Part shown: positions 1 through 27,228 of the stretch, one piece after another | Layout: each line of letters opens with the position of its first letter | Position numbering within the stretch: the stretch's first letter is position 1 | Source: an uncultured Clostridia bacterium | Lineage (GTDB): Bacteria > Bacillota > Clostridia > Christensenellales > Aristaeellaceae | Length of the DNA: 32,000 nt | Assembly: GCA_937907055.1 (NCBI GenBank) | Contig: CALCTW010000044.1 | Location: 2,401-34,400 of the forward strand | Direction of reading: 5' to 3' | Made by a program: the position numbers and the translations under genes | Notes under the pieces: model-generated | Seen by the model: only the letters and a program-made list of their open reading frames with translations | Told to the model about the DNA's origin: nothing | Database searches by the model: none

Positions 1-526
1 CGCGCGGCTTTGCTCCGGGTGTCAGGTTCAGGGAACGCTTCAGCGCGTATTCCAGCATTTTTTCCGCGGCGGTGTCCTCATCCTGTCCGAATGCCGAAAC
101 CGGCGCGATGTAGATATCCAGCACCGGGCGGTTCAGCCATTTTTCACGTGTACGGGCCTCCTGCTCGCAGTATTTCACCCCGAATACGCATTCGTAGGCA
201 AAATGCTCGCAGTTGTTGTGCAGCAGGCTGTATCCGTCTTCGCCGATCCGGGATCGTGCCGCGCGGATCGCCTTGTTCCGGTCCACACGGCGGAAGGGAT
301 CGCTCTTTTCCGGCTCGCCGATCTCAATGATCTGACCGCAGGAAAAGCTGTTGATATCCGTCACACAGACGCGGATCTCTTTTTCGTTCCGGTTCAGCGT
401 CTGCACCGGCGGCTCGCCGAACTGGATGATCTCATCGTCCGTCACGTACACGCCGTAATGATGGATCTGTCCCAGCGGAATGCGGATGATGTCACCGGCT
501 TTGCATTCGCCGGGCCACCATCTCAT
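1..526 (-). CDS. LRAT/PLAAT-like (NlpC/P60 superfamily) thiol acyltransferase/phospholipase domain protein. The 3' end lies outside the window, and the C-terminal extension is of unknown function.
   Basis: Manual reverse translation from ATG 526-524 gives MRWWPGECKAGDIIRIPLGQIHHYGVYVTDDEIIQFG...LLHNNCEHFAYEC. The H-box (HYGVYV) and the catalytic NCEHF motif are LRAT-family signatures. The frame stays open to position 1. The ATG overlaps the ACP stop (ATGA). It is absent from the ORF track because it runs off the window edge. Confidence 0.7.
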   Translation of the reverse strand, partial: MRWWPGECKAGDIIRIPLGQIHHYGVYVTDDEIIQFGEPPVQTLNRNEKEIRVCVTDINSFSCGQIIEIGEPEKSDPFRRVDRNKAIRAARSRIGEDGYSLLHNNCEHFAYECVFGVKYCEQEARTREKWLNRPVLDIYIAPVSAFGQDEDTAAEKMLEYALKRSLNLTPGAKPR

Positions 527-777
527 TTCACACGCTCCTGGATATAGGTCACGATATCGCCGATGGTCTCAAAGGTGTTGGCGGAGGCATCGTCGAAGAT
601 CGCGCCGAAGGTCTCTTCCATCGCGATCAGCACATAGAGCATCCCGGTGGAGGAGAGACCCAGCTCCGTGCGCACATTGGTCGCCTCCGTGCAGGTGCTG
701 ATCACCTGCGTATAGCGGCTGTCGGAGGACACCAGAATGTCCTTCAGCTGCTCAAAGATCTCATTTCTGTTCATCAC
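523..777 (-). CDS. Free-standing acyl/peptidyl carrier protein (ACP-like)
   Basis: 84 aa and acidic. It has an ACP helix-II-like motif, LGLSSTGMLYVLIAMEETFG, with a candidate phosphopantetheine serine. The start is GTG 777 or ATG 774, overlapping the upstream ligase stop. The stop is TGA. Confidence 0.8.
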   Translation of the reverse strand: MMNRNEIFEQLKDILVSSDSRYTQVISTCTEATNVRTELGLSSTGMLYVLIAMEETFGAIFDDASANTFETIGDIVTYIQERVK

Positions 778-2273
778 TTTTTCTTATACCTCAGGATCTT
801 CATGCTGGGGCTGCGTTCAAAATCCGTATCGCGGATCACGATGCGCGAAGCCCGGCAGTGAGAGGGGAGATTGCGGTTCACTTCTTCCAGCTGCGGCATC
901 AGGAAGGCGTTCACATCCGTCACGCCGCTCAGCTCGGTCGCGCGCGGTACTACTTCCAGCGCCAGAATGGTAATGCCGTTCTCGTTCACGTCCTCAAACA
1001 GCTGGCTGTCCTGCACCGCGGGCAGCTCGTTGAAATAGGCTTCCACCTCGGCGGGAGATACATTTTCGCCGTTCTCCAGCACAATGATCTCCTTGATGCG
1101 CCCGGTGATATACAGCAGGCCGTCCTCGTCAAAGCGCGCGAGATCGCCCGTGTGGAACCAGCCGTCCGCGTCGTAGGCCTTTTCCGGAGTGCCGCTGTAG
1201 GCGGTCAGCATATTATCGCCGCGCAGCAGCAGCTCTCCGTCCTCCAGACACAGCTCCTGGTTCGGGAAGGGCAGGCCCACGGAGGTCGGCTTGGCGGCAA
1301 ATTCCGGGTTGCCGGAAACCAGGTTGGCGCTCTCGGTCAGGCCGTAGCCGGGGAACAGGCTGATGCCGTATTTGCTGTATTCACTGATCAGATAGGGCGG
1401 CACAGCAGCCGCGCCGCAGATGATGGTGCGCATATCCGGCCCCAGCATCATGCGTCCGAATTTCTTGGAAAGGGACAGCGCCATGTCCGCCAGCGCGGGC
1501 ACCGCGATCCACATCGTGGGTCTGAAGGCTGCCGCGTCGCGGAACATCGCCTGCGGGCTGAGGCAGATGAACAGAGAACTGCCGGTATAGAAGGCCGCCA
1601 GTGTGCCGCGGATCAAGCCGAACACATGGGACATGGGCAGCGCCAGGATATAGCGCTGATCGAATACATCCTTGTAGCCGTAGCAGCCGTTGATCACGCC
1701 CTGCAGCACCGCGCGGTGGTTCAGCACAGCGCCCTTGCTGCGGCCGGTCGTGCCGCCGGTAAACATGATCACGCACTCGTCGGTGCCCTTCACATCGGCC
1801 GCCGGAACGGGTTCTTCCCGTTCGCTTCCTGTCATGCAGGGCACGCAGGTGATCGCCTGATCGCTTTCGGGGCCGACGACCGCCTTGCAGCCGAACATCT
1901 TCACCAGTCCCTCGATCGCCTGCACCGGCAGCTGAGCCGGCGCGATCGCGGCGGAGCATCCGGCAGAGGCCGCCGCCAGGAAGGCGACGATCAGGTTGTA
2001 GGAATTGGCCAGGTGCAGCAGCACACGGTCGCCCTTTTTCAGGCCTCTCTGGGCCAGCGCGCCGCGGAAGGCGGCGGTATCCTTCAGCAACTGCGCGTAG
2101 GTAAAGGCTTCGCCGTTATATTGCACCGCTTCGTGCTCGGCATAAGCTTCGCACCTTTCCAGCAGCTCCGGGATCGTGCTGATCTCGGTGATCTTATCAA
2201 ACACCTCCGCGGGGGCGTATTTCCGGAAGCTTTCACGGGAACCGCGGATGATAACGCGTTCTTCAGTGGACAT
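774..2273 (-). CDS. AMP-dependent synthetase/ligase (fatty-acyl-AMP / acyl-CoA ligase family)
   Basis: 499 aa. Adenylate-forming core motifs are present: FTGGTTGRSKGAVLNH (A3), GYGLTESA (A5), HTGDLARFDEDGLLYITGRIKE (A7/A8), and a C-terminal Lys in SMKILRYK. Confidence 0.9.
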   Translation of the reverse strand: MSTEERVIIRGSRESFRKYAPAEVFDKITEISTIPELLERCEAYAEHEAVQYNGEAFTYAQLLKDTAAFRGALAQRGLKKGDRVLLHLANSYNLIVAFLAAASAGCSAAIAPAQLPVQAIEGLVKMFGCKAVVGPESDQAITCVPCMTGSEREEPVPAADVKGTDECVIMFTGGTTGRSKGAVLNHRAVLQGVINGCYGYKDVFDQRYILALPMSHVFGLIRGTLAAFYTGSSLFICLSPQAMFRDAAAFRPTMWIAVPALADMALSLSKKFGRMMLGPDMRTIICGAAAVPPYLISEYSKYGISLFPGYGLTESANLVSGNPEFAAKPTSVGLPFPNQELCLEDGELLLRGDNMLTAYSGTPEKAYDADGWFHTGDLARFDEDGLLYITGRIKEIIVLENGENVSPAEVEAYFNELPAVQDSQLFEDVNENGITILALEVVPRATELSGVTDVNAFLMPQLEEVNRNLPSHCRASRIVIRDTDFERSPSMKILRYKKK

Positions 2274-2889
2274 AGTTTTTCAGGTTCTCCTCTTTTTCCT
2301 GCAGCAGGGCAGTGTATTTTTCGATTTCTCCGATGCCGGGCTTTTTGCCGTCCTCACCGGTCAGCACGAGCGGCTCACCGATCACGAACGTGGCACGGGA
2401 GAAGCGGTTTTTACGGGGCGCGATATACACGGGAATGATCGGGCATTCTCCCTGAAGGGCCATCAGGATGATCCCGGAATGGAATCCGCCGCCGGTGTCT
2501 CCGGTAATGCGGCCTTCGGGGAAGACGGAGATCAGCCAGCCCTCGCGCAGGCCTTTCGCGATCTCGCGGATGGTCTTCAGCCCCGGGTTCTCACGGTCCA
2601 GCGGGATGCACATAAAGTGTCCGAACAGCCAGCTCAGCCCGGGGGTGCGGAAGAATTCCTTCAGGCACACGAAGCGCTGGCGGCGATACCAGATGCAAAA
2701 CTGGAGATAGATCGGATCCAGGTGAGTCTGGTGATTGGAGCAGAGCAGCGCGCCGCCCCGGATCATCTTTTTCGCGGCTTTGTTTTCATAGATCCGCTTC
2801 GGTCTCATCCAGATGAGGCCGGGGATCGCCGCGGTCACCTTGGTAAAATCGTAAAACCAGTATTTCAGGCTGAACAGCTTATGCCCCAT
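2263..2889 (-). CDS. PlsC-type (lysophospholipid/1-acylglycerol-3-phosphate) acyltransferase
   Basis: 208 aa. HX4D motif NHQTHLD and FPEGR motif. Overlaps both neighbours by 11 nt. Confidence 0.85.
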   Translation of the reverse strand: MGHKLFSLKYWFYDFTKVTAAIPGLIWMRPKRIYENKAAKKMIRGGALLCSNHQTHLDPIYLQFCIWYRRQRFVCLKEFFRTPGLSWLFGHFMCIPLDRENPGLKTIREIAKGLREGWLISVFPEGRITGDTGGGFHSGIILMALQGECPIIPVYIAPRKNRFSRATFVIGEPLVLTGEDGKKPGIGEIEKYTALLQEKEENLKNYVH

Positions 2890-3511
2890 GGGTCGGTACC
2901 TCTCCCAATTCCATCACTTTTTCGCGCAGCAGACGGCTGCATTCGCGCACAGCCTGACGCGGATCCGCCGCGGGATCGCACATTCCTCTCAGATCAAGCG
3001 GCGCGCCGATCGTCACCCGGATGCCTTCCTTGCTGAAATACCGCCCGCTGATATACACCGGGATCACGGGCGCGCCGGTCTCCAGTGCCAGATAGGCAGC
3101 GCCTTCGCGGAAGGGCAAAGGCCGTTCCTCACCGGGCAGCGGCAGTCTTCCTTCGGGGAAAACGCCCACAAGGCCGCCCTTTTTCAGGATGGCCGCGCTC
3201 TTGTCAAGGCATGCTGTCGAATGCGCGTCGCGATCCACCCGGATTCCGCCCATCTGCTTCAGAAACAGCCCCAGACCGGGCCTTGTGAACAGGATCTCCG
3301 CCATCTGCACGCGGATGGTGCGTGTCCAGAAGGCAAACAGCAGCGCGGCGAAATCATAGACGTTTGTGTGATTGCTCACAACGATCGCGCCGCCCTTCGG
3401 ATACCGGCTCTGTTTTTCAGGCTCCGCGCGGCGCACGCGGATCTTCAGCAGCAGCTTTTCCACCGGCCACGCGGTGATCTTCACAAACCATTGAAATATC
3501 GTGATCAGCAT
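2879..3511 (-). CDS. PlsC-type acyltransferase, second paralog
   Basis: 210 aa. HX4D motif NHTNVYD and VFPEGRL motif. RBS GGGAGGG lies 6 nt before the ATG. Confidence 0.85.
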   Translation of the reverse strand: MLITIFQWFVKITAWPVEKLLLKIRVRRAEPEKQSRYPKGGAIVVSNHTNVYDFAALLFAFWTRTIRVQMAEILFTRPGLGLFLKQMGGIRVDRDAHSTACLDKSAAILKKGGLVGVFPEGRLPLPGEERPLPFREGAAYLALETGAPVIPVYISGRYFSKEGIRVTIGAPLDLRGMCDPAADPRQAVRECSRLLREKVMELGEVPTHGA

Positions 3512-5433
3512 GCGCCGCCCTCCCGGATCGTCTGCACCACCGCGTTCACGGTCGTCAGCTTCTGTTCGGTGCCGGAGGGCAGGGAAACACGGAATTCTTC
3601 CTGAATGGCTTCGGCGAGCACCAGATAATCCAGCGAAGATCCGCCCAGCAGGGTAAAGTAATCATCATCCGGGCCGATCGCGATCTCTCCGCGGGACAGG
3701 GAGATCCGGAACATCTCCGTCACTCTGTCAGTCAGCGGGTCGCCGCTGCCCTGAGCAGTCTTCACAGCGCCGGGCGTCCATACCGGCAGCTCGTTCTTTA
3801 TCAATCTGTCACGCACACGGGCGCGGCTGATCTTAAAGTCATTTTCAGCGGTCAGGTCGGCCCTTGTCATCACCACGCGGCTGATCTGTCCGTTCAGCCC
3901 GGCCGCGGCGATCTGCTCATGCACGCACTTTTCGGTCGCCTTCACCTGCTCGTCCGCGGCAAAGGGCGGCACCGCGCACACGAGGGTGGGCACCAGTCCG
4001 TGTCCGCCGATCAGGCACAGCTCGCGCACGCCCGCGGTCGCCAGCCGGGGCTCGATCAGGTTGGGGTTCAGGTTTTCGCCCGCGCTGCCGATCACCAGAT
4101 CATCGCCGCGCCCCTGCAAAAACCATTTTCCGTTTTCAAGGGCGGCCAGATCGCCGGTTTGGAACCATTCGTCTCCGCGGCGCGTCTCCTGTCCGTCCTG
4201 CAGGATCCTTCTCGCGGTGGAAGGTCCGCGCACCTCCAGCATGCCTTCCGGCGATACGCGGTATTCCACCGAGGACATCGGCGTGCCGATCGAGGGTCTG
4301 CAGCGGTCGGCGGCCTTCGCGCTCAGCTCCACGGAGGTGATGCCGATCTCCGACATGCCGTAGCCGTTGCACAGATAATAGCCCATGGCATTAAAGAAAT
4401 GCAGGGTCTCCGGATTAATGAAACTGCCGCCGGTGATCGTAAACAGCACGCTGTCGCCGAACAGGCTGCCGCGCACTTCCTTAAATAACTTTTTGCAGAT
4501 CGCTTCTCCGCCGGGCAGCTTCAGCAGTTTTTCGGAGAGCGCCAGTCCTTTCTTGAACTTGGCTTCGGTCTTTTCGCCGCGGTCGTGGATCGTCCGCAGC
4601 ACCTCGCTGTGGATCTTTTCCCAGAAGAGCGGCACCGCGAAAATGTGCGTCACCTTGTGACGGCGGATGGTGCTCAGCAGGGTCTGCGCGGAAAGGTCGT
4701 TCAGCAGCACGAAGGTCCTTGAGAAGAAGGAAAACCAGATATAGACCGCGATCAGCCCGAATACGTGATAGAACGGCAGGAAGGTCAGCAGCTTCAGTTC
4801 GCCTTCATAGTGCTGCTTGATCCGGTCATTCCGGCAGATGATATCATAACTGTCGCGGATCTGATGGCAGAACTGCTCCGCGCTGTAACAGCAGATCTTG
4901 ATGTGGGAGGAGGTGCCGGAGGACATCACCATCAGTTCGCTGCCAAATTCGCCCTTTTGCGCGGGCGTTTCGGCTTCGGAGATCTCTTCCTCCATGATCG
5001 TCGGGATGCTGAACTTTCGTCCGTCCGTGATCACGGCGATCGCGTTCGTGTCCTTCAGCGCTGTTTCCAGTGTCCCGTCATCCAGACGGGTATTCATCAG
5101 CAGCGGTCTGCAGCCGATCAGCAGGATGGCCCAGAAAAGCTGGATCCACGATACGCTGTTGTCCATATGCAGGCCGATCACGCTGTCCTTTTCGGGGTCG
5201 TTCAGCATGCTTTTCAGGGTTGCGGCGCGCTTTTCCAGCTGCTCACGGCATTCCCCGTAGGTGATCTTTTCGATCGTATAGCCGCGGCTACGTTCAAAGA
5301 ACGTGTTCCCGGCTTCGGAAAACATGGAATCATACAGGGAGGAAAAACGCTTGTCGCTGTTTTCAAAGGCTTCATATTTCTTCTGGACATAAGTATTTAC
5401 ATCCTTATATCCGCCGATGTTGGTCAGCTTCAC
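3505..5433 (-). CDS. Adenylate-forming enzyme fused to a C-terminal carrier (thiolation) domain (A-T didomain)
   Basis: 642 aa. Degenerate A3 motif SSGTSSHIKI, GYGMSEIG (A5), QTGDLA...GRGDDLVIGSAGENLNP (A7/A8). The C-terminal YFTLLGGSSLDYLVLAEAIQEEF is a carrier-domain GGxSL motif. GTG start is preceded by AAGGAGG at 7 nt. Confidence 0.85.
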   Translation of the reverse strand: MKLTNIGGYKDVNTYVQKKYEAFENSDKRFSSLYDSMFSEAGNTFFERSRGYTIEKITYGECREQLEKRAATLKSMLNDPEKDSVIGLHMDNSVSWIQLFWAILLIGCRPLLMNTRLDDGTLETALKDTNAIAVITDGRKFSIPTIMEEEISEAETPAQKGEFGSELMVMSSGTSSHIKICCYSAEQFCHQIRDSYDIICRNDRIKQHYEGELKLLTFLPFYHVFGLIAVYIWFSFFSRTFVLLNDLSAQTLLSTIRRHKVTHIFAVPLFWEKIHSEVLRTIHDRGEKTEAKFKKGLALSEKLLKLPGGEAICKKLFKEVRGSLFGDSVLFTITGGSFINPETLHFFNAMGYYLCNGYGMSEIGITSVELSAKAADRCRPSIGTPMSSVEYRVSPEGMLEVRGPSTARRILQDGQETRRGDEWFQTGDLAALENGKWFLQGRGDDLVIGSAGENLNPNLIEPRLATAGVRELCLIGGHGLVPTLVCAVPPFAADEQVKATEKCVHEQIAAAGLNGQISRVVMTRADLTAENDFKISRARVRDRLIKNELPVWTPGAVKTAQGSGDPLTDRVTEMFRISLSRGEIAIGPDDDYFTLLGGSSLDYLVLAEAIQEEFRVSLPSGTEQKLTTVNAVVQTIREGGAC

Positions 5434-6717: not shown

Positions 6718-6746
6718 TTGCCACAGGCCGGGCTTTTGTTTATAAT
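6718..6746 (+). promoter_or_regulatory. SigA-like promoter for the 6775 gene
   Basis: TTGCCA (6718-6723), 17 nt spacer, TATAAT (6741-6746). The RBS AGGGAGG follows. Confidence 0.55.
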
Positions 6747-6774
6747 GAAACAAACAGAGAAGGGAGGCGCGCGC

Positions 6775-7683
6775 ATGCCGGGATCAGGCCGCATCATTTA
6801 TTATCATCTGCCCGGGCTTTTTGAGTTTACCGATCTTTACCGGGTCTTCCTTCAGCTTTACCGGGATCACCGGGACTGGTTCTATGATGACTGCCGCATC
6901 GCCTCCATCTACGGGGCTCCGGCGGATTGCCTCTGGGGCGGCGGTCGGGTCGGCTTCGGGGACGCGGATCTGTCCTCGGTCCTTTCTCTCGTCCGGGAGC
7001 ACGGCATTTCCGCCCGTCTCACGTTCAGCAATTCTCTTCTGCGGCCATAGCATCTCTCAGATCCCCGTTGCAATCGTCTCTGTGAGTCTTTTCAGCACGC
7101 GGGCCCTGTTCAAAGCGGCATCATCGTCCATTCCGATCTTCTGCTTCAGTACCTGAAGCAACGTTATCCGGATTTTTACTTCGTATCCTCCACCACCAAG
7201 GTCCTTACCCGGTTTGAGGATCTCCGTTCAGAACTGGATCGTCCTGATTTCCGCTTTGTCGTTCCCGATTTCCGTCTCAATAAGGCCTTTGATCAGCTTT
7301 CCGCCCTGACAGACATGCAGAAAAGCAAGGTCGAATTCCTCTGCAATGAATGCTGCAGCATCTCCTGTCCGGACAGGAAAGCCTGTTATGAAAATGTCAG
7401 CCGCAAAAATCTGGGGGAGACATGCCCGGATCATCGCTGCGCCTCCCCGGATGCCGGTCAGGGCTATCGTTTTTCAAAAGCCATGCGGAATCCGTCCTTC
7501 ATCAGCCTGTTCGATATCCGTACGGTCTATCTTCCGCTCGGTTTTTCTCATTTCAAGATCGAGGGGCGCAGCCTCGGCAGCGCGGTCATTCTGGAATTCC
7601 TGCTCTATTATCTCACCCGCCCGGAATTCCATCTGCAGGTGCGTGAGGAGATCTATCTTGATAGCATGCTGGATCTTTTCTGA
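6775..7683 (+). CDS. Conserved Cys-rich protein, U32-peptidase-like (KIEGR motif), interrupted by one in-frame TAG at 7048-7050. Either a pseudogene or a recoded/read-through gene.
   Basis: ORFs 6718-7050 and 7315-7683 are in the same frame. The 88 codons at 7051-7314 are open with coding-like composition and contain no ATG/GTG/TTG. The only defect is the TAG. Motifs: FKIEGRS and the CNECCSISCPDRKAC cluster. The family assignment is tentative. Confidence 0.6.
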
Positions 7684-9161: not shown

Positions 9162-11876
9162 TCAGTTCAGCTTGATGCCGTACATGGCGGCATTGCCCTT
9201 GCTGCAGGTGCCGATCACCAGCACGTTCTTATATACCGCGGGGCTGCTCTGGATCGTTCCGCCCAGGTTCAGGGTGGAGATCTCCGCGCCGCTCACGCCG
9301 TCCAGCAGGTGCAGCACGCCGCTCTCGTCCGCCTGAATGATCCAGGCGTTCCCCAGCTCGTTGTACACAGCCACGGGGGAGGAGACAGCCGTCGTGGTCA
9401 GCTCGCGGGTCCAGCGGATCTTGCCGCTCTTCTTTTCAAAGGCCATCACAGCGCTTGTCTTGCCCTTGCCGGTCATGTTCACCGTGAAGATCACCAGGTC
9501 ATCGATCGCGTTTTCACCGATCACCGGGCTGGCTTTGCATCCGGCCAGTTCGCTGCTGTTGTAAACGCAGCTCACATCCGCTTTCCAGATCTCTTCGCCG
9601 GTCAGGGCGTCCAGACGGCGGATCACACACTTTCCGTCCTTCTTTAGGCGCTCATAGCAGGTCGTTCCGGTATACAGGCCCAGATTGCCGTCCTCGTCAA
9701 AGTCCAGCGCGATGCTGGCATCCGTATTGTCGCCGCAGTCCACCGCCCACACCGTATTCATGGTGGTGGTGTCCACGCAGCGCAGCAGGCCGTAGGTATC
9801 CGCCATGTACACATATCTGCCGTACATGGCCGCGCTGCTCTCAATTCCCGTGCGGTTGTCCTTCTGGGCGTTGGCCTTGCTCTTCAGGTACACCGTGTCG
9901 GCATTGATGGTCAGGTTCGTCGCGCCGGCAGGGAAGGTGGTATGCAGATCCACCGTGTACAGCAATCCGTTCTCGCCGCCGATGATCAGCGCGTCACCGT
10001 CCTCCTGGCTCAGGAACAGGCCGGTTCCGTCAAAGGCGCCGTTGGCGGAGTATTGTTCGTTCTGGCGGCCGTTCAGGAACAACAGCTGTTTCTGATCCAC
10101 CAGGTTGTATACATAGTATCCGATCGATCCGGTTTTGTTGGCCAGCTTGGAGACCGCCTGACCGATGCCCATGATCGGGCGGGAGTAGGGATCGACCGCC
10201 GCGCTGCTCTTCAGCGGGAAGCCGATATTGATGCAGTCGCGGGTCTGTTCGCCGGTCGTCAGGTCCAGGAAGTAGATCTTTCCGTCCAGCGCGCCGAAGA
10301 TCACTTCCTTCAGTCCCTGCTTTTCCTTTTTCGCGTCATACAGGTTCATGATGGCGCGTACATCGCCGGGCCACTTGATAATGGCGGGCTGTGTGCCCCA
10401 GCCGACACCGTACAGCGTGCCGTCGCTCGTCTTCAGGCTGCCCAGATCCTTCTTCCACAGGATCTCCATCTGTCCGGTCGTGATCTCCACGGTGCTGTAG
10501 GCGGCATTGCGGCGGAAGTTGTCGCCGCGGAAGGTGAAGATACCGTTATTCGCGTAGGTATAGTGGTTCGGGTCGGGCGCGTTGTAGGGCAGCTCACGGG
10601 TGAAGCCGGATTGCTTCTTTCCGCCCTTATAGATCGCCTGCAGCAGCTTCACCAGCGAGGGATCGGTCCGGCCGGTCACGGCGGCAGCGTCCAGCACAGG
10701 CATGGGGGTCGCGGTGGGATCCGGCACCTCGGTCGGTTCCGGGGTCTCGGTGGGATTGGGCGTCGGTACCTCCGTCGGCATCGGGGTGGGCTCCGGCGTG
10801 ATCATCTCCGTGGGGGCCGGGGTCGGCACTTCGGTCTCCGCCGGCGCGGGGGCTTCGGTCGGGATCGCGGTCGCGTTCGCCACGGGCACAAATCCGGAGG
10901 CGTTCACATCCTCGGGCTCCTCGGTCGGGGCAGCGGTGGGCACCATGGTCACAAATACAGGCGCCTGTGTCACAAAGGGCACTTCGGTCACGGGCGCGGC
11001 GGTCACCGGCGCTTCGGTCTCAACGGCATCCTTCACGATCACGCGGATGCGCGCGTTGGTGTCCTTCAGTTCGGTGTTCAGGTTCTCGCGGATCTGCACG
11101 CGGAAGTAGCCGTCATATTCGGCGGCCAGATACACTCGCACATCCCAGGTGCCGTTGTCACCGTTGGTGTAGGTGCCGATCACTTCGCCGGTCTGCTCGT
11201 AGATCAGGCGGATCTCCGCCACGGAGGCAGAGGTCTTCACCGTAAATTCCAGCGGCTGCGCGGTGGTGCAGCTCTCGTTGTTGCCCTTCGGGCAAACGAT
11301 CGTCACATTGGCGCTCGTATCCTGCGTGCTCACCTCCGGCGTGACCACGGGGGCGTTCACACCGTTTCCGGTCAGGTTGCTGAATTTTTCGCCGATGCCG
11401 TTTCCGGGCACCAGCACGAAGAAGGCGATCACCAGTCCCACGATCAGCGCGATCAGCATGGCGATCAGCACCTTGGGCCACACAGGGCTGTTATCCTCTT
11501 CCGGATAGTACGGAGGCGTGTTCTCCGGGGCGTATCCGCCGTCATCGTACGGCGAATAGGGGGATTCGCCCCTCGGCATCTCATATTCGTTTCCGTTCGC
11601 GCCGGGCTGCGGGCGTTCCGCGGGACGCTCAAAGCGCGTCGTGCTGCCGGGCGCGGCAGCGGAGGCGGGCTGGAAACGCACCGTTTCGCCGCCGGCATTG
11701 CCTGTCGGCATCCTGTCTCCGCGGTGTCTGATCGTTGTATCCGGCGCGGCGGGCATCGGCGGCACGTATTCGCGCGCCTCCGGCTGCTTCTCGGTGGATT
11801 TGATATATTGCTCGTGTTCGTTCCCTCTCATCCTGTTGGGATCGTACTGCGGGTTATAGTCATGCTTTTCGCTCAA
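9162..11876 (-). CDS. Single-pass membrane protein. Domains in order: disordered Pro/Tyr-rich cytoplasmic N-terminus, TM segment, Ig-like region, Pro/Thr-rich linker, and a PQQ-like (BamB-like) beta-propeller ectodomain.
   Basis: 904 aa. TTG start preceded by GAAGGAGGG at 7 nt. TM segment is VLIAMLIALIVGLVIAFFVLV. A PT linker of about 110 aa precedes a C-terminal region with repeated G-x-hydrophobic-Y/W strand patterns typical of PQQ-like propellers. The domain call is by eye. Confidence 0.75.
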   Translation of the reverse strand: MSEKHDYNPQYDPNRMRGNEHEQYIKSTEKQPEAREYVPPMPAAPDTTIRHRGDRMPTGNAGGETVRFQPASAAAPGSTTRFERPAERPQPGANGNEYEMPRGESPYSPYDDGGYAPENTPPYYPEEDNSPVWPKVLIAMLIALIVGLVIAFFVLVPGNGIGEKFSNLTGNGVNAPVVTPEVSTQDTSANVTIVCPKGNNESCTTAQPLEFTVKTSASVAEIRLIYEQTGEVIGTYTNGDNGTWDVRVYLAAEYDGYFRVQIRENLNTELKDTNARIRVIVKDAVETEAPVTAAPVTEVPFVTQAPVFVTMVPTAAPTEEPEDVNASGFVPVANATAIPTEAPAPAETEVPTPAPTEMITPEPTPMPTEVPTPNPTETPEPTEVPDPTATPMPVLDAAAVTGRTDPSLVKLLQAIYKGGKKQSGFTRELPYNAPDPNHYTYANNGIFTFRGDNFRRNAAYSTVEITTGQMEILWKKDLGSLKTSDGTLYGVGWGTQPAIIKWPGDVRAIMNLYDAKKEKQGLKEVIFGALDGKIYFLDLTTGEQTRDCINIGFPLKSSAAVDPYSRPIMGIGQAVSKLANKTGSIGYYVYNLVDQKQLLFLNGRQNEQYSANGAFDGTGLFLSQEDGDALIIGGENGLLYTVDLHTTFPAGATNLTINADTVYLKSKANAQKDNRTGIESSAAMYGRYVYMADTYGLLRCVDTTTMNTVWAVDCGDNTDASIALDFDEDGNLGLYTGTTCYERLKKDGKCVIRRLDALTGEEIWKADVSCVYNSSELAGCKASPVIGENAIDDLVIFTVNMTGKGKTSAVMAFEKKSGKIRWTRELTTTAVSSPVAVYNELGNAWIIQADESGVLHLLDGVSGAEISTLNLGGTIQSSPAVYKNVLVIGTCSKGNAAMYGIKLN

Positions 11877-12024: not shown

Positions 12025-13173
12025 TCAGTTTGTCCCGGCGCTTCTGTTCAGCATCACCAGCGCGCGGTTCAGGCTCGTGTCGTCATAGCTGTCCAGCGAA
12101 TAGATGAACAGCATGCTGTCGATCGTTTCCTCCGCCCCCAGCACATCGCCGATCGTCACCGAAGCCGGCAGATAACGGGTGTCCACTGCCACGATCCGCT
12201 TGTAATTCATCATCAGGAAAGGCAGCAGGCTGTTGGCAAAGCTGTCCTTCATCACAAACAGCGTGCCGTTTTCCGCGTTTTCATTCTCCAGCACGGTCAC
12301 ACCGTGGTTGCCGTCCAGATACACGGCATACATGTCATAGGTTTCGGCGCGTCCGGGGAAGATTACATGATCATAGGTTTCACCGTCAAAGGTCACTTTC
12401 ACGCTCGTTTTCGGTTCCGCCGCGCGGATCGTGTCGCTTACGCTCACGGGCAGTCCGCTTCTGGAGGCTGTCGTGCCCCGGAAGCCCGTATATTCCGTGA
12501 TCGTAAATGCATCCATGGCCGCCGCTGTCAGTCCGGTCTGTCCGCAGTAGGCTTCGTAGGCCGCGTACGCGCCCTCCAGCGTCCAGTGGTGATCGGTCAG
12601 GTAATACAGATCCTTTTCGCCTTCAAATAGCGGCTGCAGCTTCACAAAGCGCGGGTCATCCGTCAGCGCTGTGTACGCCGCGCGCTCCTCCTCAAACAGC
12701 GTTTGGCTCAGCGGCCCCATCCGGTCCGCCAATACCTCGCCGTGGGTCGGCGGTGTGATGAACGCGCAGCTTACACCGTACTTTTCCGCCATCCGGATCA
12801 GATTGTCCCGTGTCCGGCACAGCGTTTCCGCGTCCGCGTCCACAGGCTTCTCCACCAGGCTGTTTCCGGCGATCCACGCGCCCAGCTGGCTTCCGCGCCC
12901 TGTCGCCACATTATATACGGCATTCACGGATACCAGCGTGTCTCTTCCCGGCAGGTGATCGGAAAGATAGGTTTCCAGGTCATTGTTAAAGGTCCATTCA
13001 GTCAGGCTTTCCGGAGCCTTCAGCCCGGCCAGCGCGCGGCGTTCCCGGTCGGAAAAATCTTTTCCCGGCAGCACCAGCGTGCAGATCCCGATCACCAGCA
13101 GCAGGGGAAGCGCGCCGTAGGCGATGACCCGGTCCCAGACTGCTGATTTTTTCAGCTTCTTATCATCATCCAT
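12025..13173 (-). CDS. DHHW-family protein (AlgJ/AlgX/PatB-like SGNH-fold O-acyltransferase partner of MBOAT)
   Basis: 382 aa. N-terminal TM anchor, the motif YYLTDHHWT, and a downstream KDSFANS serine motif. Confidence 0.85.
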   Translation of the reverse strand: MDDDKKLKKSAVWDRVIAYGALPLLLVIGICTLVLPGKDFSDRERRALAGLKAPESLTEWTFNNDLETYLSDHLPGRDTLVSVNAVYNVATGRGSQLGAWIAGNSLVEKPVDADAETLCRTRDNLIRMAEKYGVSCAFITPPTHGEVLADRMGPLSQTLFEEERAAYTALTDDPRFVKLQPLFEGEKDLYYLTDHHWTLEGAYAAYEAYCGQTGLTAAAMDAFTITEYTGFRGTTASRSGLPVSVSDTIRAAEPKTSVKVTFDGETYDHVIFPGRAETYDMYAVYLDGNHGVTVLENENAENGTLFVMKDSFANSLLPFLMMNYKRIVAVDTRYLPASVTIGDVLGAEETIDSMLFIYSLDSYDDTSLNRALVMLNRSAGTN

Positions 13174-13185
13174 GCGGGTCTCTCC

Positions 13186-14535
13186 TTAGAATTGGAAGTA
13201 CACAAAAGGCGCGAAGCCCTCCGCCGCCAGCGCCGCCAGGCACAGCAGGAACAGAAGGATCGTCAGCACACGCTTCACCGGCATCGGCAGTTTGATCGCC
13301 GGGGCAAAGCTGATCCCGGCGCACACCAGCATCATCGGCAGGTAAGAAACACAGGTCAGCAGGGCTTTGGAACTGATGGGGGAGAAGGCGAAGATCGTTC
13401 CGGCCAGCTGTCCGCCGAAGCCGGAAAACAGCCCCCAGCCGATCACCACCAGCAAGAAGGTCACAGCCCTTCTCAGCAGGCGCGGGATCGCTTCATACCA
13501 GGCTTTTTTCAGCATGAACCGCTTCTCGATCATCAGCAGCGCCGCGAAGTAAAGTCCCCACAGCACATAGTTCCAGCCCGCGCCGTGCCACAGTCCTGTC
13601 AGCGCCCACACGATCAGAATATTCACATTTCTGCGCAGCACGCTGCACCGGCTTCCGCCCAGCGGGAAATACACATACTCGCGGAACCAGGTGGTCAGTG
13701 TCATGTGCCAGTGCCGCCAGAAGCCGGTAATGGAATCCTCGCGGTAGGGTCTGTCAAAGTTTTCAGGCAGCCGGAAGCCCATCGCTTCGCCAAGGCCCAG
13801 CGCCATGTCGGAATAGCCCGAAAAGTCAAAAAAGATCTGGAATGAGAATGCCAGAATGCCGATCACGGCGCCGATCGATCCGGCGCTCGCAAAATCGCCG
13901 TTGATCGTGCCCCACAGCCGTCCCATGGCGTCCGCCAGCAGCACCTTCTTGCCAAGGCCTACGGTAAATCGGGCCAGTCCGTGACGGATGCCCGCCGGGG
14001 TCACGTTTGCCGGGCTGTCCAACTGCGCCTCCAGGTCGGTATAGCGCACGATCGGGCCGGCTACCAGCTGGGGGAACAGTGTCAGATACACGCCGAAGCG
14101 GACGATGCTCCTTTGCGGCTTTGCCTGCCCGCGGTACACGTCGATCAGATAACTGATCCCCTGAAAGGTAAAGAACGAGATGCCGGCCGGCAGCACCGGG
14201 TCATCAAAAGCCATGCCCCAGCCGGTCAGGCCGCGCACGGTCTCAAGGAAAAACCCTGTGTACTTGTAATAGAGCAGCGGCAGCACATTCAAAATGATCA
14301 GCCCCGCCAGCACCGCCTTCCGCTGCTTTCCGCCGCGTGTCATGAACAGGGCTCCGGCCCAGTCCAGCACCAGCACGTACAAAAGCAGGATCAGCCACAG
14401 CGGCGATCCCCACGCGTAAAACAAAAGCGAGGCCGCTAATAAAAACGGCCTTTTCGCTTTTTGCGGCAGCAGCTTATGCCCCAGCAGCACCGCGGGCATA
14501 AACAGCAGCAGAAATGTAAAGGAACAAAACAGCAT
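13186..14535 (-). CDS. MBOAT-family membrane-bound O-acyltransferase (AlgI/DltB/PatA-like)
   Basis: 449 aa and polytopic. It shows an AlgI-like N-terminus (MLFCSFTFLLLF), FWRHWHMTLTTWFREYVYFPLGG, and WHG containing the conserved His. Confidence 0.9.
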   Translation of the reverse strand: MLFCSFTFLLLFMPAVLLGHKLLPQKAKRPFLLAASLLFYAWGSPLWLILLLYVLVLDWAGALFMTRGGKQRKAVLAGLIILNVLPLLYYKYTGFFLETVRGLTGWGMAFDDPVLPAGISFFTFQGISYLIDVYRGQAKPQRSIVRFGVYLTLFPQLVAGPIVRYTDLEAQLDSPANVTPAGIRHGLARFTVGLGKKVLLADAMGRLWGTINGDFASAGSIGAVIGILAFSFQIFFDFSGYSDMALGLGEAMGFRLPENFDRPYREDSITGFWRHWHMTLTTWFREYVYFPLGGSRCSVLRRNVNILIVWALTGLWHGAGWNYVLWGLYFAALLMIEKRFMLKKAWYEAIPRLLRRAVTFLLVVIGWGLFSGFGGQLAGTIFAFSPISSKALLTCVSYLPMMLVCAGISFAPAIKLPMPVKRVLTILLFLLCLAALAAEGFAPFVYFQF

Positions 14536-14551
14536 TCGTTTTTCTCTCCGG

Positions 14552-15073
14552 TCAGCGTCCCTGCAGCACGGCGCGGGTCTCTTCAGCCGCGTCGCTGCCC
14601 ACGATCAGCACCACGGTGTTGCCCTTGCGCTCCACCTTGGCCGCGCTCAGCAGCTTGTATTCATCGGGCAGGTAGTTCTGGGTCTCCTTCATGCGCTGAT
14701 TCAGGTATTTGTTCAGCGCGCTCTCGGCCTTGTCGGCAGCGGCGCTGTCATTGGCGGTCAGCACGATCACGCAGCGGGCGCTCACGCCGTCCTCGCTCTC
14801 AAAGTAGACGATCTCGCTGTAGCTTTCCTCCGTAAGACCGATCAGCTCGCAGATGATCGCGCCGGGGAATTCCACAATGCCGTCCGTGTTCTTCAGCGCG
14901 TCCTTCACCGCTGCAGGCTCATTCACCGCGGGCGCGCTCGTCGCTTCCGCGGGCGCGGCGGTCGCCGCGTTCTTTTCATCGGTCTTCGTGTTATTTCCGC
15001 AGGCGCACAGGCCGGTCATCAGCACCAGCAGCAGAAGCGCGCATCCAATACTCTTTTTCTTCATATCTTTCAC
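14552..15073 (-). CDS. Small lipoprotein (DUF4358-like, tentative)
   Basis: 173 aa. Signal sequence plus lipobox LMTGLCAC|G. Confidence 0.7.
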   Translation of the reverse strand: MKDMKKKSIGCALLLLVLMTGLCACGNNTKTDEKNAATAAPAEATSAPAVNEPAAVKDALKNTDGIVEFPGAIICELIGLTEESYSEIVYFESEDGVSARCVIVLTANDSAAADKAESALNKYLNQRMKETQNYLPDEYKLLSAAKVERKGNTVVLIVGSDAAEETRAVLQGR

Positions 15074-15082
15074 TTATCTCCT

Positions 15083-15844: not shown

Positions 15845-16037
15845 GTTTTCCCCCTTCCGTTCAACGTGTTCCATTATATGCTTTGCTCCCCTTCTTTGTC
15901 AACCGCCGGGGGCGCTTCACCCCTTGCGGGAACGGCTTTTCTATGGTATCCTGCTCATAACGCATTCTGTTTTTTTACATTGTTAAGGGTCCGCGTTTCA
16001 TGCGCGTGATCCATGATCTATGAAAGGAAGTATTTCT

Positions 16038-17108: not shown

Positions 17109-17290
17109 CCGGGCCTGCGCTCTGCTTCTGTCCATCAGCGGCTGTGTCTGCATTCACCTTTTTTGGATGCCGTATCTTCCGCGTCCCGCGTGATCCACAG
17201 GTTCGGGCGCGCGCGTCACGCTCTGCTGTCTGGTATCAGCTTCAGTCATGACGCGTGACGGGGTATGAGCATTTTCCGGTCAACACCCTG

Positions 17291-17318
17291 TTGCGTGCCC
17301 TCTTTTCTGTGGTATACT
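17291..17318 (+). promoter_or_regulatory. SigA-like promoter with extended -10 for the rph operon
   Basis: TTGCGT, 16 nt spacer, TGGTATACT. Confidence 0.5.
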
Positions 17319-17404: not shown

Positions 17405-18712
17405 ATGACCCGCTGCAGCAACGAACTCAGAGAACATACGATCATCCCCGGCTTTGTGGCCACGGCGGATGGCAGCTGCCTCATCAGCACCGGCAATACC
17501 AAGGTCATCTGCACGGCCTCCATCGATGAATCCGTTCCGCCCTTCCTGCGCGGCAAGGGCATGGGCTGGGTCACGGCGGAATACGCCATGCTGCCCGCCT
17601 CCACCGGCCATCGCAAGGCCCGTGACGGGGTCAAGAAGGATGGCCGCGGCGTGGAGATCAGCCGTCTCATCGGCCGCGCGCTGCGTCAGGCGGTGGATCG
17701 CCGTTATATGGACGGCTTCACCATCACCATCGACTGCGATGTGCTTCAGGCGGACGGCGGCACCCGCACCGCCTCCATCACCGGCGGCTTTGTCGCGCTC
17801 TGCCTCGCGGTGGATAAACTCCTCCGGCAGGGCAAGCTTAAGCAGTCTCCCATCATCCATCAGATCAGCGCGGTCTCTGCCGGCATCTGTGAAGATGTCC
17901 CCACGCTGGATCTTTGCTACGAGCAGGATTCCTCCGCGCAGGTGGATATGAACTTCGTCATGGATGACGCCGGTCATTTTGTTGAATTGCAGGGCACCGG
18001 CGAAGGCCGTGCCTTCTCGGATGAAGAACTGGCCTCTCTGCTTTCGCTGGGCAAGAAGGGCTGCATGGAATTGCAGGCGCTTCAGCGCGAAGCCCTTGGC
18101 GAGGCCGTGTCCGTCATCGCGCCCAGGCGTGTCATCGTTCTGGCCAGCAATAACGCCCATAAGGTGGTCGAGCTCAAGACCATGCTGGGCGATCGCTACA
18201 CCGTCCTCTCCATGAAGGAAGCCGGCATCGATACCGATATCGATGAAAACGGCGAGACCTTCGAGGAAAACGCCCTCATCAAGGCGCGCGCCGTGTGCCG
18301 GCTCACCGGTCTTCCGGCGCTGGCGGATGACAGCGGTCTCGCGGTCGATGCCCTCGGCGGCGCGCCCGGTGTCCACAGCGCCCGCTATGCCGGTGAACAC
18401 GGCAATGACAAGGCCAATAATGATCTCCTCATCGAAAACATGAAGGATGTTCCGGATGAAAAGCGTACCGCCTCCTTCGTCAGCTGCGTGGCGCTGGTCA
18501 CGCCCTGGGGCGAGGAGGCTGCCCGTGAGGGCCGCTGCCCCGGTGTCATCATCCACGAAAGCCGCGGCAACGGCGGCTTCGGCTATGACCCCTATTTCCT
18601 GTATGAATCGGGCCGCACCTTCGCGGAAATGGGCGCGGAGGAGAAGAACGCCATCTCGCACCGCGCCATCGCCATGGCCGCCATGCTGCCCGTCATTCTC
18701 GAAATCCTGTAA
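17405..18712 (+). CDS. rph: Bifunctional fusion of RNase PH and RdgB/HAM1-type non-canonical NTP (dITP/XTP) pyrophosphatase
   Basis: The RNase PH part (to about 18100) contains GSCLISTGNTKVICTAS, GWVTAEYAMLP and DCDVLQADGGTRTASITG. The RdgB part (from about 18125) contains VLASNNAHKVVEL, ADDSGLAVDALGGAPGVHSARY, GFGYDPYF and ISHRA. The start at 17405 follows AAGGAG. Confidence 0.9.
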   Translation: MTRCSNELREHTIIPGFVATADGSCLISTGNTKVICTASIDESVPPFLRGKGMGWVTAEYAMLPASTGHRKARDGVKKDGRGVEISRLIGRALRQAVDRRYMDGFTITIDCDVLQADGGTRTASITGGFVALCLAVDKLLRQGKLKQSPIIHQISAVSAGICEDVPTLDLCYEQDSSAQVDMNFVMDDAGHFVELQGTGEGRAFSDEELASLLSLGKKGCMELQALQREALGEAVSVIAPRRVIVLASNNAHKVVELKTMLGDRYTVLSMKEAGIDTDIDENGETFEENALIKARAVCRLTGLPALADDSGLAVDALGGAPGVHSARYAGEHGNDKANNDLLIENMKDVPDEKRTASFVSCVALVTPWGEEAAREGRCPGVIIHESRGNGGFGYDPYFLYESGRTFAEMGAEEKNAISHRAIAMAAMLPVILEIL

Positions 18713-18726
18713 GGAGGGGCCTTCCC

Positions 18727-19191
18727 ATGATCACACTCGGTGTCGTGTCCGATTCTCATGGCGATAAAGGCCGCCTCGGCAACATCATGATGATGTTTTA
18801 GTATAAGAAGGTGGACGGGGTCATCCATCTGGGGGATGGCTGCCGGGATATGGAGCCCTATGCCGCGGCCTTCAGACAGGTCTGGCAGGTCGCCGGCAAC
18901 TGTGATTTTTCCTCCCTTCCGCGGGAGGAGGTCATCACGATAGGCGGACAGCGCATCCTGATCACCCACGGGCATCGCTTCATGGTCAAGAGCAGCACCA
19001 CGCTGCTCGGCATAGAGGCGGAGGAGCAGGGGGTCAAAGCCGCGCTCTTCGGTCACACGCACGAGCCCTTTATCGATTATCACGGCGGCATCCTGCTGCT
19101 GAACCCCGGTTCCGCGCATGACGGCTGCTACGCCATATTGAAGATCCACGATAACGGCATGGTGGAGGGCGAGCTCAACCGCCGCGCCTGA
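18727..19191 (+). CDS. YfcE/YsnB-family metallophosphoesterase with one in-frame TAG at 18799-18801 (codon 25). Either a pseudogene or a recoded/read-through gene.
   Basis: ATG 18727 follows RBS AAGGAGGGG. The N-terminal segment MITLGVVSDSHG carries the essential DxH motif. After the TAG the same frame continues with VDGVIHLGDG, GNCD, ITHGH and GHTH. There are no other defects. Confidence 0.75.
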
Positions 19192-27222: not shown

Positions 27223-27228
27223 GATACC

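What the first reader, a model, noticed from the sequence alone, without database searches (positions are those of the whole stretch)
6775..7683. U32-like Cys-rich gene with a single in-frame TAG and 88 start-less open codons after it
The frame opened by ATG 6775 (consensus promoter and RBS upstream) runs to TGA 7681-7683, with only TAG 7048-7050 interrupting it (…TFSNSLLRP-TAG-HLSDPRCNRLCE…). Codons 7051-7314 are open, have GC3-rich coding-like composition, and contain no ATG, GTG or TTG. The conserved C-terminal two thirds (CNECCSISCPDRKAC, FKIEGRS) therefore cannot be translated independently. Either the gene was inactivated very recently by one point mutation, or the TAG is read through.
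Basis: seen in the sequence. Interest (0 to 1): 0.65.

Follow-up and report, generated by a model that had tools for sequence, protein, structure and literature searches.

The report
Conserved in-frame TAG codons, apparently translated
A highly conserved enzyme gene carries one TAG "stop" codon that every sampled strain shares, the gene still evolves like a working gene, and a second gene 11 kb away shows the same thing, so this gut bacterium probably reads TAG as an amino acid, which outside pyrrolysine has not been described for a bacterium.

Summary
ATG 6775 to TGA 7683 is one frame broken only by TAG 7048-7050, followed by 88 codons without ATG, GTG or TTG. More than 8000 full-length homologs (about 300 aa) align collinearly across the TAG, and 116 of 120 have Glu there.

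It is neither a sequencing error nor a recent pseudogene. Three further strains from other assemblies (L140, L141, L154; 96-97% nucleotide identity) carry the same TAG. Downstream of it, pN/pS is about 0.2, the same range as intact neighbours. There are no indels where about 4.6 are expected, and 138 of 139 family-conserved residues are kept.

A second gene, a YfcE-type phosphoesterase at 18727-19191, has an in-frame TAG at 18799-18801 between its catalytic motifs. That TAG is also conserved in a sister strain, and the closest homologs again have Glu. None of the 25 window genes whose stop codon is visible ends in TAG.

Neither TAG is followed by an RNA structure, which points to a trans-acting decoder: a suppressor tRNA or a reassigned codon. 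No such tRNA, RF1 gene or pyl gene lies in the window, so the mechanism is inferred.

The protein is a distant U32-like TIM barrel. Elsewhere the same family is sometimes truly pseudogenised.

The parts
6718..6746 (+). Promoter-like site TTGCCA-17-TATAAT upstream of the U32-like gene
   Evidence: 11 of 12 matches. Both hexamers are conserved in sister strains L140 and L141.
6762..6767 (+). Shine-Dalgarno-like GGGAGG, 7 nt before ATG 6775
   Evidence: Identical in L140 and L141.
6775..7047 (+). Codons 1-91 of the U32-like gene (strands beta1-beta3 of the predicted TIM barrel)
   Evidence: Between strains there are 3 synonymous changes and 1 non-synonymous change.
7048..7050 (+). In-frame TAG at the position of a near-invariant Glu (GAG in relatives)
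   Evidence: The same TAG is present in L140, L141 and L154.
7051..7683 (+). Codons 93-302 plus TGA: the rest of the barrel, including the Cys-rich CNECCx3Cx5C and CPDHxC motifs and FKIEGR. The frame is open and under purifying selection.
   Evidence: There is no conserved internal start: the first in-frame ATG/GTG/TTG after the TAG is codon 181 (window), 216 (L140) or 152 (L141, L154).
18712..18717 (+). AGGAGG ribosome-binding site of the second TAG-containing gene
18727..19191 (+). YfcE-family metallophosphoesterase gene (154 codons) with one in-frame TAG. Motif I (DSHGD) lies before the TAG and motifs II-V after it.
   Evidence: collinear with PDB 3ck2; TIGR00040, 82.6 bits against a cut-off of 56.25, spanning the TAG.
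18799..18801 (+). Second in-frame TAG. The two closest homologs have Glu at this column.
   Evidence: The TAG is conserved in sister strain L155, where the gene shows 5 synonymous changes and 1 non-synonymous change.

Best explanation
In this organism UAG is translated rather than used only for termination. The decoder is trans-acting, most likely a tRNA with a CUA anticodon, possibly with weakened or lost RF1. The U32-like gene at 6775-7683 is therefore one intact, functional gene of 302 codons. Its codon 92 arose as GAG to TAG and is read as an amino acid, with Glu as the best guess and Gln or another residue not excluded.

The same applies to the YfcE-type phosphoesterase gene at 18727-19191.

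Shown here:
- both TAGs are conserved across strains;
- the sequence on both sides of each TAG is under protein-level constraint;
- the window has no TAG terminators;
- there is no local RNA signal.

Inferred, because the components lie outside the window:
- the existence of a decoding tRNA;
- the amino acid it inserts;
- the status of RF1.
For: 1. The TAG at 7048 is present in the window and in three other assemblies from different ENA samples: L140, L141 and L154, at 96-97% nucleotide identity. No intact copy closer than 75% protein identity exists among 5.8 billion proteins.

2. Protein-level constraint persists after the TAG.
- Across the strains, codons 93-302 show about 22.5 synonymous and 15.5 non-synonymous changes, pN/pS about 0.2. 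The 16 intact genes compared give 0.02-0.27.
- The binomial p against neutrality is 3e-6 to 3e-4, depending on transition bias.
- There are no indels, whereas intergenic DNA has about 1 indel per 7 substitutions, so 4.6 are expected and P(0) = 0.01.
- Gene divergence is 3.2-3.5% against 5.7-7.3% for intergenic DNA.
- 138 of 139 columns that are at least 97% conserved in 120 homologs are kept. That is within the family norm, whereas a lineage with an in-frame TGA (L146) deviates at 5 columns, one of them the stop itself.

3. Polymorphisms lie 9 codons upstream and 6 codons downstream of the TAG between the window and its sisters. The TAG therefore did not spread by a recent sweep.

4. There is a second in-frame TAG in an unrelated gene at 18799. 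It is collinear with homologs and solved structures and separates essential catalytic motifs. It is conserved in the sister strain, and five related strains yield only a truncated 113-aa product; the cluster's only longer member, 126 aa, is the window's own truncated product.

5. Both TAG sites align with Glu: 116 of 120 homologs at the first and the two closest homologs at the second.

6. Of 25 genes with a visible stop codon, 17 end in TGA, 8 in TAA and 0 in TAG. Comparably GC-rich loci use TAG for 12-15% of stops, so P(0) is roughly 0.04 or below.

7. No significant RNA structure follows either TAG (z -0.4 and -1.0) and the two contexts share nothing (CCA TAG CAT versus TTT TAG TAT). This argues for a trans-acting decoder rather than a cis recoding signal.

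8. There is no conserved internal start codon for separate translation of the C-terminal part.
Against: - No CUA-anticodon tRNA, RF1 gene or pyl gene is in the 32 kb. The only tRNA is Ser-GGA.
- Only about 26 genes can be examined, so the lack of TAG terminators is weakly significant on its own.
- Only two TAG sites bear on the amino acid. Both are also what simple GAG to TAG nonsense mutation would produce.
- The same protein family carries true-looking lesions in other lineages: TGA at Arg81 in a common human-gut species, TAA or TAG at the same Glu in two others, and frameshifts. The family can therefore be lost.
- A pN/pS of 0.2 is in the upper part of the range of neighbouring genes.
- The sister strains come from adjacent ENA accessions and may represent one study.
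Confidence: 0.6

Rival explanations
1. Leaky termination without a dedicated decoder. The organism uses the standard code, and near-cognate tRNAs read UAG at a low rate. Read-through may be helped at 7048 by the poor terminator context Pro-UAG-C. The small amount of full-length enzyme is enough for selection to maintain the gene.
For: This also explains the conserved TAG and the purifying selection downstream. The codon before the TAG is Pro (CCA) and the next base is C. From general knowledge of E. coli, a C-terminal Pro slows termination. No suppressor tRNA is seen in the window.
Against: Two genes out of about 26 would depend on read-through of around 1%. The second site has a different context (Phe-UAG-U). 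The absence of TAG terminators is not predicted by this model.
Confidence: 0.15
2. Ordinary pseudogene. A GAG to TAG nonsense mutation killed the gene, the rest has not yet decayed, and the second TAG is another pseudogene.
For: One G-to-T change explains the TAG. The family is interrupted or frameshifted in several other lineages, such as L010, L144, L145 and L146-L153, and L146 shows excess changes at conserved columns. The GC3 of this gene is lower than in most of its neighbours.
Against: The TAG predates the split of four strains. Since then pN/pS has been 0.2 rather than 1 (p <= 3e-4), with no indels (P = 0.01), no second stop, and half the intergenic divergence. The promoter and RBS are conserved. 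138 of 139 conserved residues are kept. The model requires two old but undecayed TAG pseudogenes in 32 kb and, by chance, no TAG terminators.
Confidence: 0.12
3. Pyrrolysine insertion. The organism carries pylTSBCD, and its tRNA-Pyl(CUA) reads these TAGs.
For: Pyrrolysine decoding is the only UAG decoding known in bacteria. Archaea that use it constitutively have few TAG terminators and stray in-frame TAGs (general knowledge; abstract of PMC3941956, listed).
Against: The window has no pyl genes and no methylamine methyltransferase. Both sites are Glu in relatives, not Lys. Pyl-using bacteria are not known to avoid TAG terminators.
Confidence: 0.08
4. Split gene. The 91-aa N-terminal piece and a separately initiated C-terminal piece assemble into one enzyme.
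For: Gene callers produce two ORFs. In another lineage (L146), a TTG 12 codons after the stop could serve as a restart.
Against: No ATG, GTG or TTG occurs for 88 codons in the window, and the first one differs between strains: codon 181, 216 or 152. In L140 it lies beyond the Cys motif. No RBS follows the TAG. The TAG sits inside a single TIM barrel, just after beta3, and not at a domain border. In the second gene the upstream piece is only 24 aa but carries catalytic motif I.
Confidence: 0.03
5. Sequencing or assembly error at position 7048.
For: None, beyond the fact that a single base is involved.
Against: The same base is present in four independent assemblies that differ at 22-32 other positions of the gene when L140 and L141, which differ from each other at only 9, are taken as one group.
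Confidence: 0.01

Closest known systems
Amber (TAG)-recoded gut phages such as Lak and crAss-like phages, which carry suppressor tRNAs (preprint 10.1101/2021.08.26.457843; PMC10607447)
   Same: They have in-frame TAG codons at conserved positions of otherwise intact genes, decoded in trans by a tRNA(CUA). They come from the same type of habitat, gut metagenomes.
   Different: Those are phage genomes whose hosts use the standard code. This window is chromosomal, with glycogen synthesis genes, a leu operon, SpoIIE, HtrA and RNase PH. TAG density is low (2 in about 26 genes), and no suppressor tRNA is visible.
Pyrrolysine decoding of UAG (Methanosarcinales, Methanomassiliicoccales, some Bacillota and Deltaproteobacteria)
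   Same: It is the only known natural UAG decoding in prokaryotic cells. In constitutive users TAG terminators become rare and occasional in-frame TAGs appear.
   Different: The window has no pyl genes or methylamine methyltransferases. Relatives have Glu at both sites.
UGA stop-to-sense reassignments in bacteria (code 4, Trp; code 25, Gly)
   Same: A stop codon becomes a sense codon across the genome. Such cases are recognised from in-frame stops at conserved positions and from loss of that codon as a terminator.
   Different: A different codon is involved. [quoted passage not shown]
UAR to Glu codes of peritrich ciliates and Blastocrithidia (codes 30 and 31)
   Same: UAG is read as Glu, the residue suggested here by both sites.
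   Different: Those are eukaryotic nuclear codes that also involve UAA. Here TAA is clearly a terminator (8 genes).
Peptidase U32 superfamily (Mk0906 structure 5d88; from general knowledge also the Fe-S hydroxylases UbiU/UbiV, RlhA and TrhP)
   Same: A single TIM barrel. The top Foldseek hit is 5d88 (E 2.5e-6, TM 0.53/0.63). Weak PF01136 similarity lies around the FKIEGR segment. There is a cluster of conserved cysteines.
   Different: The scores are below Pfam's threshold and no NCBIfam model matches. The cysteine pattern, CNECCx3Cx5C...CPDHxC, is its own. This is a separate, uncharacterised family that stays about 70% identical across Clostridia, Fibrobacter, Treponema and Bacteroidales.

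Membership tests
Stop-codon (UAG) reassignment or genome-wide amber suppression | In-frame TAG at conserved positions of several unrelated, otherwise intact genes | tested here: met
   Two genes out of about 26: TAG 7048 and TAG 18799. Both TAGs are conserved in sister strains.
Stop-codon (UAG) reassignment or genome-wide amber suppression | Sequence downstream of the in-frame TAG evolves under protein-level constraint | tested here: met
   pN/pS is about 0.2 with p <= 3e-4, there are no indels (P = 0.01), and 138 of 139 conserved residues are kept. The second gene shows 5 synonymous changes and 1 non-synonymous change.
Stop-codon (UAG) reassignment or genome-wide amber suppression | TAG is not used, or only rarely used, as a terminator | tested here: inconclusive
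   0 of 25 genes end in TAG, against 12-15% in loci of similar GC content. P is roughly 0.04 or below, and the sample is too small to be decisive.
Stop-codon (UAG) reassignment or genome-wide amber suppression | A tRNA with anticodon CUA (or UUA) is encoded in the genome | not testable with these tools
   Only tRNA-Ser(GGA) lies in the window. The rest of the genome could not be fetched.
Stop-codon (UAG) reassignment or genome-wide amber suppression | Release factor 1 (prfA) is lost or altered | not testable with these tools
   prfA is not in the window.
Stop-codon (UAG) reassignment or genome-wide amber suppression | The same amino acid is aligned to TAG across sites | tested here: inconclusive
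   Glu aligns at both sites. There are only two sites, and the second column is variable in more distant homologs.
Pyrrolysine system | pylT, pylS and pylBCD genes; TAG in mtmB, mtbB or mttB genes | not testable with these tools
   None of these is in the 32 kb. The rest of the genome is unavailable.
cis-directed recoding (SECIS- or PYLIS-like read-through signal) | A conserved RNA structure or motif next to the stop codon | tested here: not met
   Folding z-scores are -0.4 and -1.0. The two sites share no context.
Pseudogene | Relaxed constraint: dN/dS near 1, indels, secondary stops, decay of expression signals | tested here: not met
   See the best explanation for the figures.
Peptidase U32 (Pfam PF01136) | A match to the family HMM above the gathering score | tested here: not met
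   The window protein gives no hit at E <= 1. Four of 30 homologs hit at E 0.055-0.11; the one hit shown in full (P0001) scores 12.2 bits against a cut-off of 22.4.
Peptidase U32 (Pfam PF01136) | A U32-type TIM-barrel fold | tested here: met
   The AlphaFold2 model has pLDDT 87.5 and an alternating beta/alpha pattern. The best PDB match is 5d88, U32 peptidase Mk0906, with probability 1.00.
Peptidase U32 (Pfam PF01136) | Four conserved Cys ligating a 4Fe-4S cluster, as in UbiU/UbiV, RlhA and TrhP (general knowledge) | not tested
   Invariant cysteines exist (C190, C193, C194, C198, C204, C217, C222 in window numbering). Their equivalence to the U32 ligands was not examined.
YfcE family phosphodiesterase (TIGR00040), second gene | An HMM match above cut-off that spans motifs I-V | tested here: met
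   82.6 bits against a cut-off of 56.25, residues 4-130, with Glu placed at the TAG. The Pfam Metallophos_2 match to the part after the TAG begins at profile position 25.

The most novel reading that the evidence does not exclude
This Clostridia-like gut lineage has changed its genetic code. UAG is no longer a terminator but a rare sense codon, read by a canonical-amino-acid tRNA(CUA) that most likely inserts Glu or Gln, probably after loss or weakening of RF1. That would be the first stop-to-sense reassignment of UAG in a bacterium outside the pyrrolysine system, caught at an early stage in which roughly 1 gene in 12 holds a TAG.
Probability: 0.4. Interest if true: 0.9.

Novelty: new variant of a known kind. 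Interest (0 to 1): 0.75.

Why it matters
All bacterial stop-codon reassignments documented so far concern UGA. UAG decoding is known only for pyrrolysine and for phages. A free-living gut bacterium that translates UAG would have several consequences:
- It would add a new bacterial genetic code.
- Current annotation of such MAGs would be shown to be wrong. Here gene callers split both genes into fragments, which hides intact enzymes and inflates pseudogene counts.
- It would bear on how TAG-recoded gut phages and their hosts interact.
- It would offer a natural tRNA and synthetase pair, and possibly an RF1-free chassis, for genetic-code expansion.

Even under the more modest reading of tolerated leaky termination, it is a clear case of a nonsense codon kept for a long time inside a gene that remains under selection.

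Tried and rejected
- **Exact look-ups of the window's own products** found nothing; the window's contig appears to be withheld from the index. The neighbouring 280-aa protein gave a 97% relative and so led to the sister contigs.
- **The degenerate DNA pattern around the TAG** in metagenome contigs found 59 contigs. All belong to a different, GC-richer species (<= 70% nucleotide identity) with GAG or GGG. They are useful only for the ancestral codon.
- **The genome-contig scan** returned no relative closer than 75% protein identity, and one search found no DNA similarity outside the gene, so no synteny.
- **A possible hotspot for stops and frameshifts at codon 92.** I suspected this because fragments from other lineages end at or near it. 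Much of it is ascertainment: the query was residues 1-91 and the hits returned were all 160 aa or shorter. The 'LSLIHI' tails look like translated sequencing adaptor (recognised from memory). Among 139 loci not selected by that fragment search, the only internal stop is at Glu17 in L010. A roughly five-fold excess of frameshift breakpoints at codons 88-94 remains unexplained.
- **A replicate selection test in the TGA-bearing lineage** (L146-L153) failed for lack of variation: at most 1 difference in the gene.
- **cis recoding signals** were rejected, as was Rfam.
- **Organism names** could not be obtained from cluster look-ups.
- **Sequence search against PDB** gave nothing for the U32-like family. 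Only the fold search did.

Full report
**1. The observation**

The frame from ATG 6775 to TGA 7681-7683 has 303 codons. Its single internal stop is TAG 7048-7050. The 88 codons from 7051 to 7314 contain no ATG, GTG or TTG. A near-consensus promoter (TTGCCA-17-TATAAT, 6718-6746) and a GGGAGG 7 nt before the ATG precede the gene.

The stretch after the TAG has coding-like periodicity. Its GC3 is only 0.53, however, lower than in most of the surrounding genes (0.72-0.83).

**2. What the gene is**

Pfam and NCBIfam do not recognise the conceptual product. A search of 5.8 billion proteins nevertheless returned more than 8000 relatives. The best are all full length (296-326 aa), 70-75% identical, and cover 97-100% of the query.

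The alignment is collinear across the TAG. Among 120 homologs the column holds Glu 116 times, Ala 2, Lys 1 and Ser 1, flanked by invariant L-L and H-L. In 59 metagenome contigs that share the local peptide, the codon is GAG 58 times and GGG once. The TAG therefore arose as GAG to TAG.

An AlphaFold2 model of a 75%-identical homolog (pLDDT 87.5) is a single beta/alpha barrel. Its best match among solved structures is the U32 peptidase Mk0906 (5d88, E 2.5e-6). Four of 30 homologs also give sub-threshold PF01136 hits around FKIEGR. 'U32-like' is thus right at the level of fold, but this is a separate uncharacterised family.

The family is unusually conserved, about 70% identity across Clostridia, Fibrobacter, Treponema and Bacteroidales from rumen and gut. 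The TAG lies just after strand beta3, inside the barrel and not at a domain border.

**3. Sister strains**

The window's own products are not retrievable. The adjacent 280-aa protein has a 97% relative, whose contigs are 96-97% identical to the window. A fourth strain came from the 91-aa N-terminal product.

All three full-length sister copies (L140, L141, L154) carry TAG at the same codon, and the frame is open to the same TGA. This excludes a sequencing error and places the TAG before the divergence of these strains.

No copy with more than 75% identity and an intact codon exists in the protein collection.

**4. Is the downstream part still under selection?**

Among the strains, codons 93-302 show about 22.5 synonymous and 15.5 non-synonymous changes. 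Pairwise pN/pS is 0.19-0.22. The intact genes compared give 0.02-0.27 between the same genomes.

Under neutrality 68-78% of changes should be non-synonymous. The binomial probability of the observed split is 3e-6 to 3e-4.

Non-coding DNA between the same genomes shows about one indel per seven substitutions and 5.7-7.3% divergence. The gene has no indel (4.6 expected, P = 0.01) and 3.2-3.5% divergence.

The window protein keeps 138 of 139 columns that are at least 97% conserved in the family. This is within the family norm (mean 0.5 deviations).

Polymorphisms 9 codons before and 6 codons after the TAG separate the window from its sisters. The TAG allele therefore did not spread recently by recombination.

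The first canonical in-frame start after the TAG differs between strains: codon 181, 216 or 152. In L140 it lies beyond the Cys-rich motif. Independent translation of a C-terminal protein is therefore not a conserved option.

**5. A second case in the same window**

While annotating the window I found that the Pfam Metallophos_2 match of ORF 18802-19191 begins at profile position 25. Upstream, in the same frame, an AGGAGG and ATG 18727 open 24 codons (MITLGVVSDSHGDKGRLGNIMMMF) that carry metallophosphoesterase motif I. TAG 18799-18801 follows, and then YKKVDGVIHLGDG..., which is motif II.

- The conceptual protein aligns collinearly with PDB 3ck2 and 2kkn.
- It passes the TIGR00040 (YfcE) cut-off across the TAG.
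- The two closest homologs (59% and 46-47% identity) have Glu at the TAG column.
- The sister strain has the same TAG, and the gene differs by five synonymous changes and one non-synonymous change.
- Five related strains yield only a truncated 113-aa product, and none yields an intact 154-aa one.

**6. Use of TAG in the window**

With TAG treated as sense, no other ORF pair merges convincingly. Of 25 genes whose stop codon is visible, 17 end in TGA, 8 in TAA and none in TAG. A crude gene call on fetched loci of similar GC content gives 12-15% TAG, so P(0 of 25) is roughly 0.04 or below. This is suggestive but weak on its own.

**7. Mechanism**

Neither TAG is followed by a significant RNA structure (z -0.4 and -1.0). 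The contexts differ (CCA TAG CAT versus TTT TAG TAT). Rfam and ARAGORN find only tRNA-Ser(GGA).

Two unrelated genes, no cis signal and no TAG terminators point to a trans-acting decoder, meaning a tRNA that reads UAG, perhaps with reduced RF1 activity. That both sites are Glu in relatives makes Glu the best guess for the inserted residue. Gln or another residue is possible, because the first site tolerates Ala, Lys and Ser in a few homologs. These steps are inference; the relevant genes lie outside the window and could not be fetched.

**8. Rivals**

- Leaky termination by near-cognate tRNAs explains the selection data. It does not readily explain two genes in 32 kb or the lack of TAG terminators.
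- An ordinary pseudogene is contradicted by section 4.
- Pyrrolysine cannot be excluded without the genome, but nothing supports it.
- A split gene with re-initiation lacks a start codon and a domain border.
- Sequencing error is excluded.

**9. Caveat from other lineages**

The same family carries single in-frame stops elsewhere:
- TGA at Arg81 (CGA to TGA) in a very common human-gut species (index lists it in 450 blocks; L146-L153);
- TAA at the same Glu in a close relative of that species (L144);
- TAG at the same Glu in a third lineage, whose relatives also show Lys at the site, a frameshift and another truncation (L145, P0257, P0258);
- a stop at Glu17 in L010.

L146 deviates at five highly conserved columns, one of which is the stop itself, which looks like decay. 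The family is therefore lost in some lineages, and this raises the prior for a pseudogene. The within-lineage tests in sections 4-6 are what set the window's lineage apart.

**10. Comparison with what is known**

[quoted passage not shown] Four literature searches found no report of non-pyrrolysine UAG decoding in a bacterium. The closest known systems are TAG-recoded gut phages with suppressor tRNAs and pyrrolysine users.

**11. Verdict**

The TAG is old and conserved, it sits in a gene that is still under selection, and it is not unique in the window.

I put 0.6 on trans-acting UAG decoding as a property of the organism. Within that, about 0.4 goes to a true canonical-amino-acid reassignment. 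The remainder is 0.15 on leaky termination, 0.12 on pseudogene and 0.08 on pyrrolysine. Whole-genome inspection for tRNA(CUA), prfA, pyl genes and TAG usage would settle it.

Noticed in passing
window 18727-19191 (TAG at 18799-18801): A second gene, a YfcE-type metallophosphoesterase, has a conserved in-frame TAG between catalytic motifs I and II. Gene callers report only a 113-126 aa fragment.
   Followed up: yes
window, all 25 genes with a visible stop codon: No gene ends in TAG: 17 end in TGA and 8 in TAA.
   Followed up: partly
L146-L153, positions 2501-3400 (TGA at 2732-2734): In a very common human-gut species (index lists the product in 450 blocks) the same family gene has one in-frame TGA at a conserved Arg (CGA to TGA) and is otherwise open. 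It has four further changes at highly conserved columns, so it is probably a fixed pseudogene. Variation was too low to test selection.
   Followed up: partly
L144 619-621 (TAA); L145 1066-1068 (TAG); L010 (stop at Glu17): Other lineages carry a stop at exactly the same Glu codon (TAA or TAG) or at another conserved Glu. Among database fragments of 160 aa or less, frameshift breakpoints cluster at codons 88-94, about five times the density further downstream. Part of this is ascertainment and the rest is unexplained.
   Followed up: partly
window 6775-7683 and loci L001-L080: The U32-like family has no Pfam or NCBIfam model yet stays about 70% identical across Clostridia, Fibrobacter, Treponema and Bacteroidales of rumen and gut. 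This suggests strong constraint, horizontal spread, or both. Invariant cysteines suggest a metal or Fe-S site. The function is unknown.
   Followed up: partly
window 6775-7683: The GC3 of this gene (0.53-0.69, depending on the segment) is below that of most neighbours (0.72-0.83; the adjacent 280-aa gene has 0.65), which may reflect foreign origin.
   Followed up: no
window 523-5433 (- strand): A cluster of an acyl carrier protein, two AMP-binding enzymes (one with a PP-binding domain) and two acyltransferases. An LRAT/NlpC-like gene runs off the left end.
   Followed up: no
window 12025-15874 (- strand): An MBOAT, DHHW/AlgX-like, DUF4358 and GDSL lipase set, resembling a polysaccharide or teichoic-acid O-acylation module. 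It lies next to a 904-aa beta-propeller protein with a Pro/Thr-rich linker (9162-11876).
   Followed up: no
window 27633-31117: Two tandem pairs of aconitase-family small and large subunit genes (LeuD/LeuC-like), followed by a LeuA-like gene that runs off the right end. A 678-nt gap with no called gene precedes them (26955-27632), and Rfam finds nothing there.
   Followed up: no
window 17255-18712: A fused RNase PH and Ham1 (dITP/XTP pyrophosphatase) gene. The sister-strain gene call starts 50 codons later (435 aa).
   Followed up: no
proteins P0176, P0187, P0209, P0217, P0225, P0138: Several database 'proteins' end in LSLIHI(SEPTRH). I recognise this from memory as the translation of a Nextera adaptor left at contig ends in public assemblies.
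   Followed up: no
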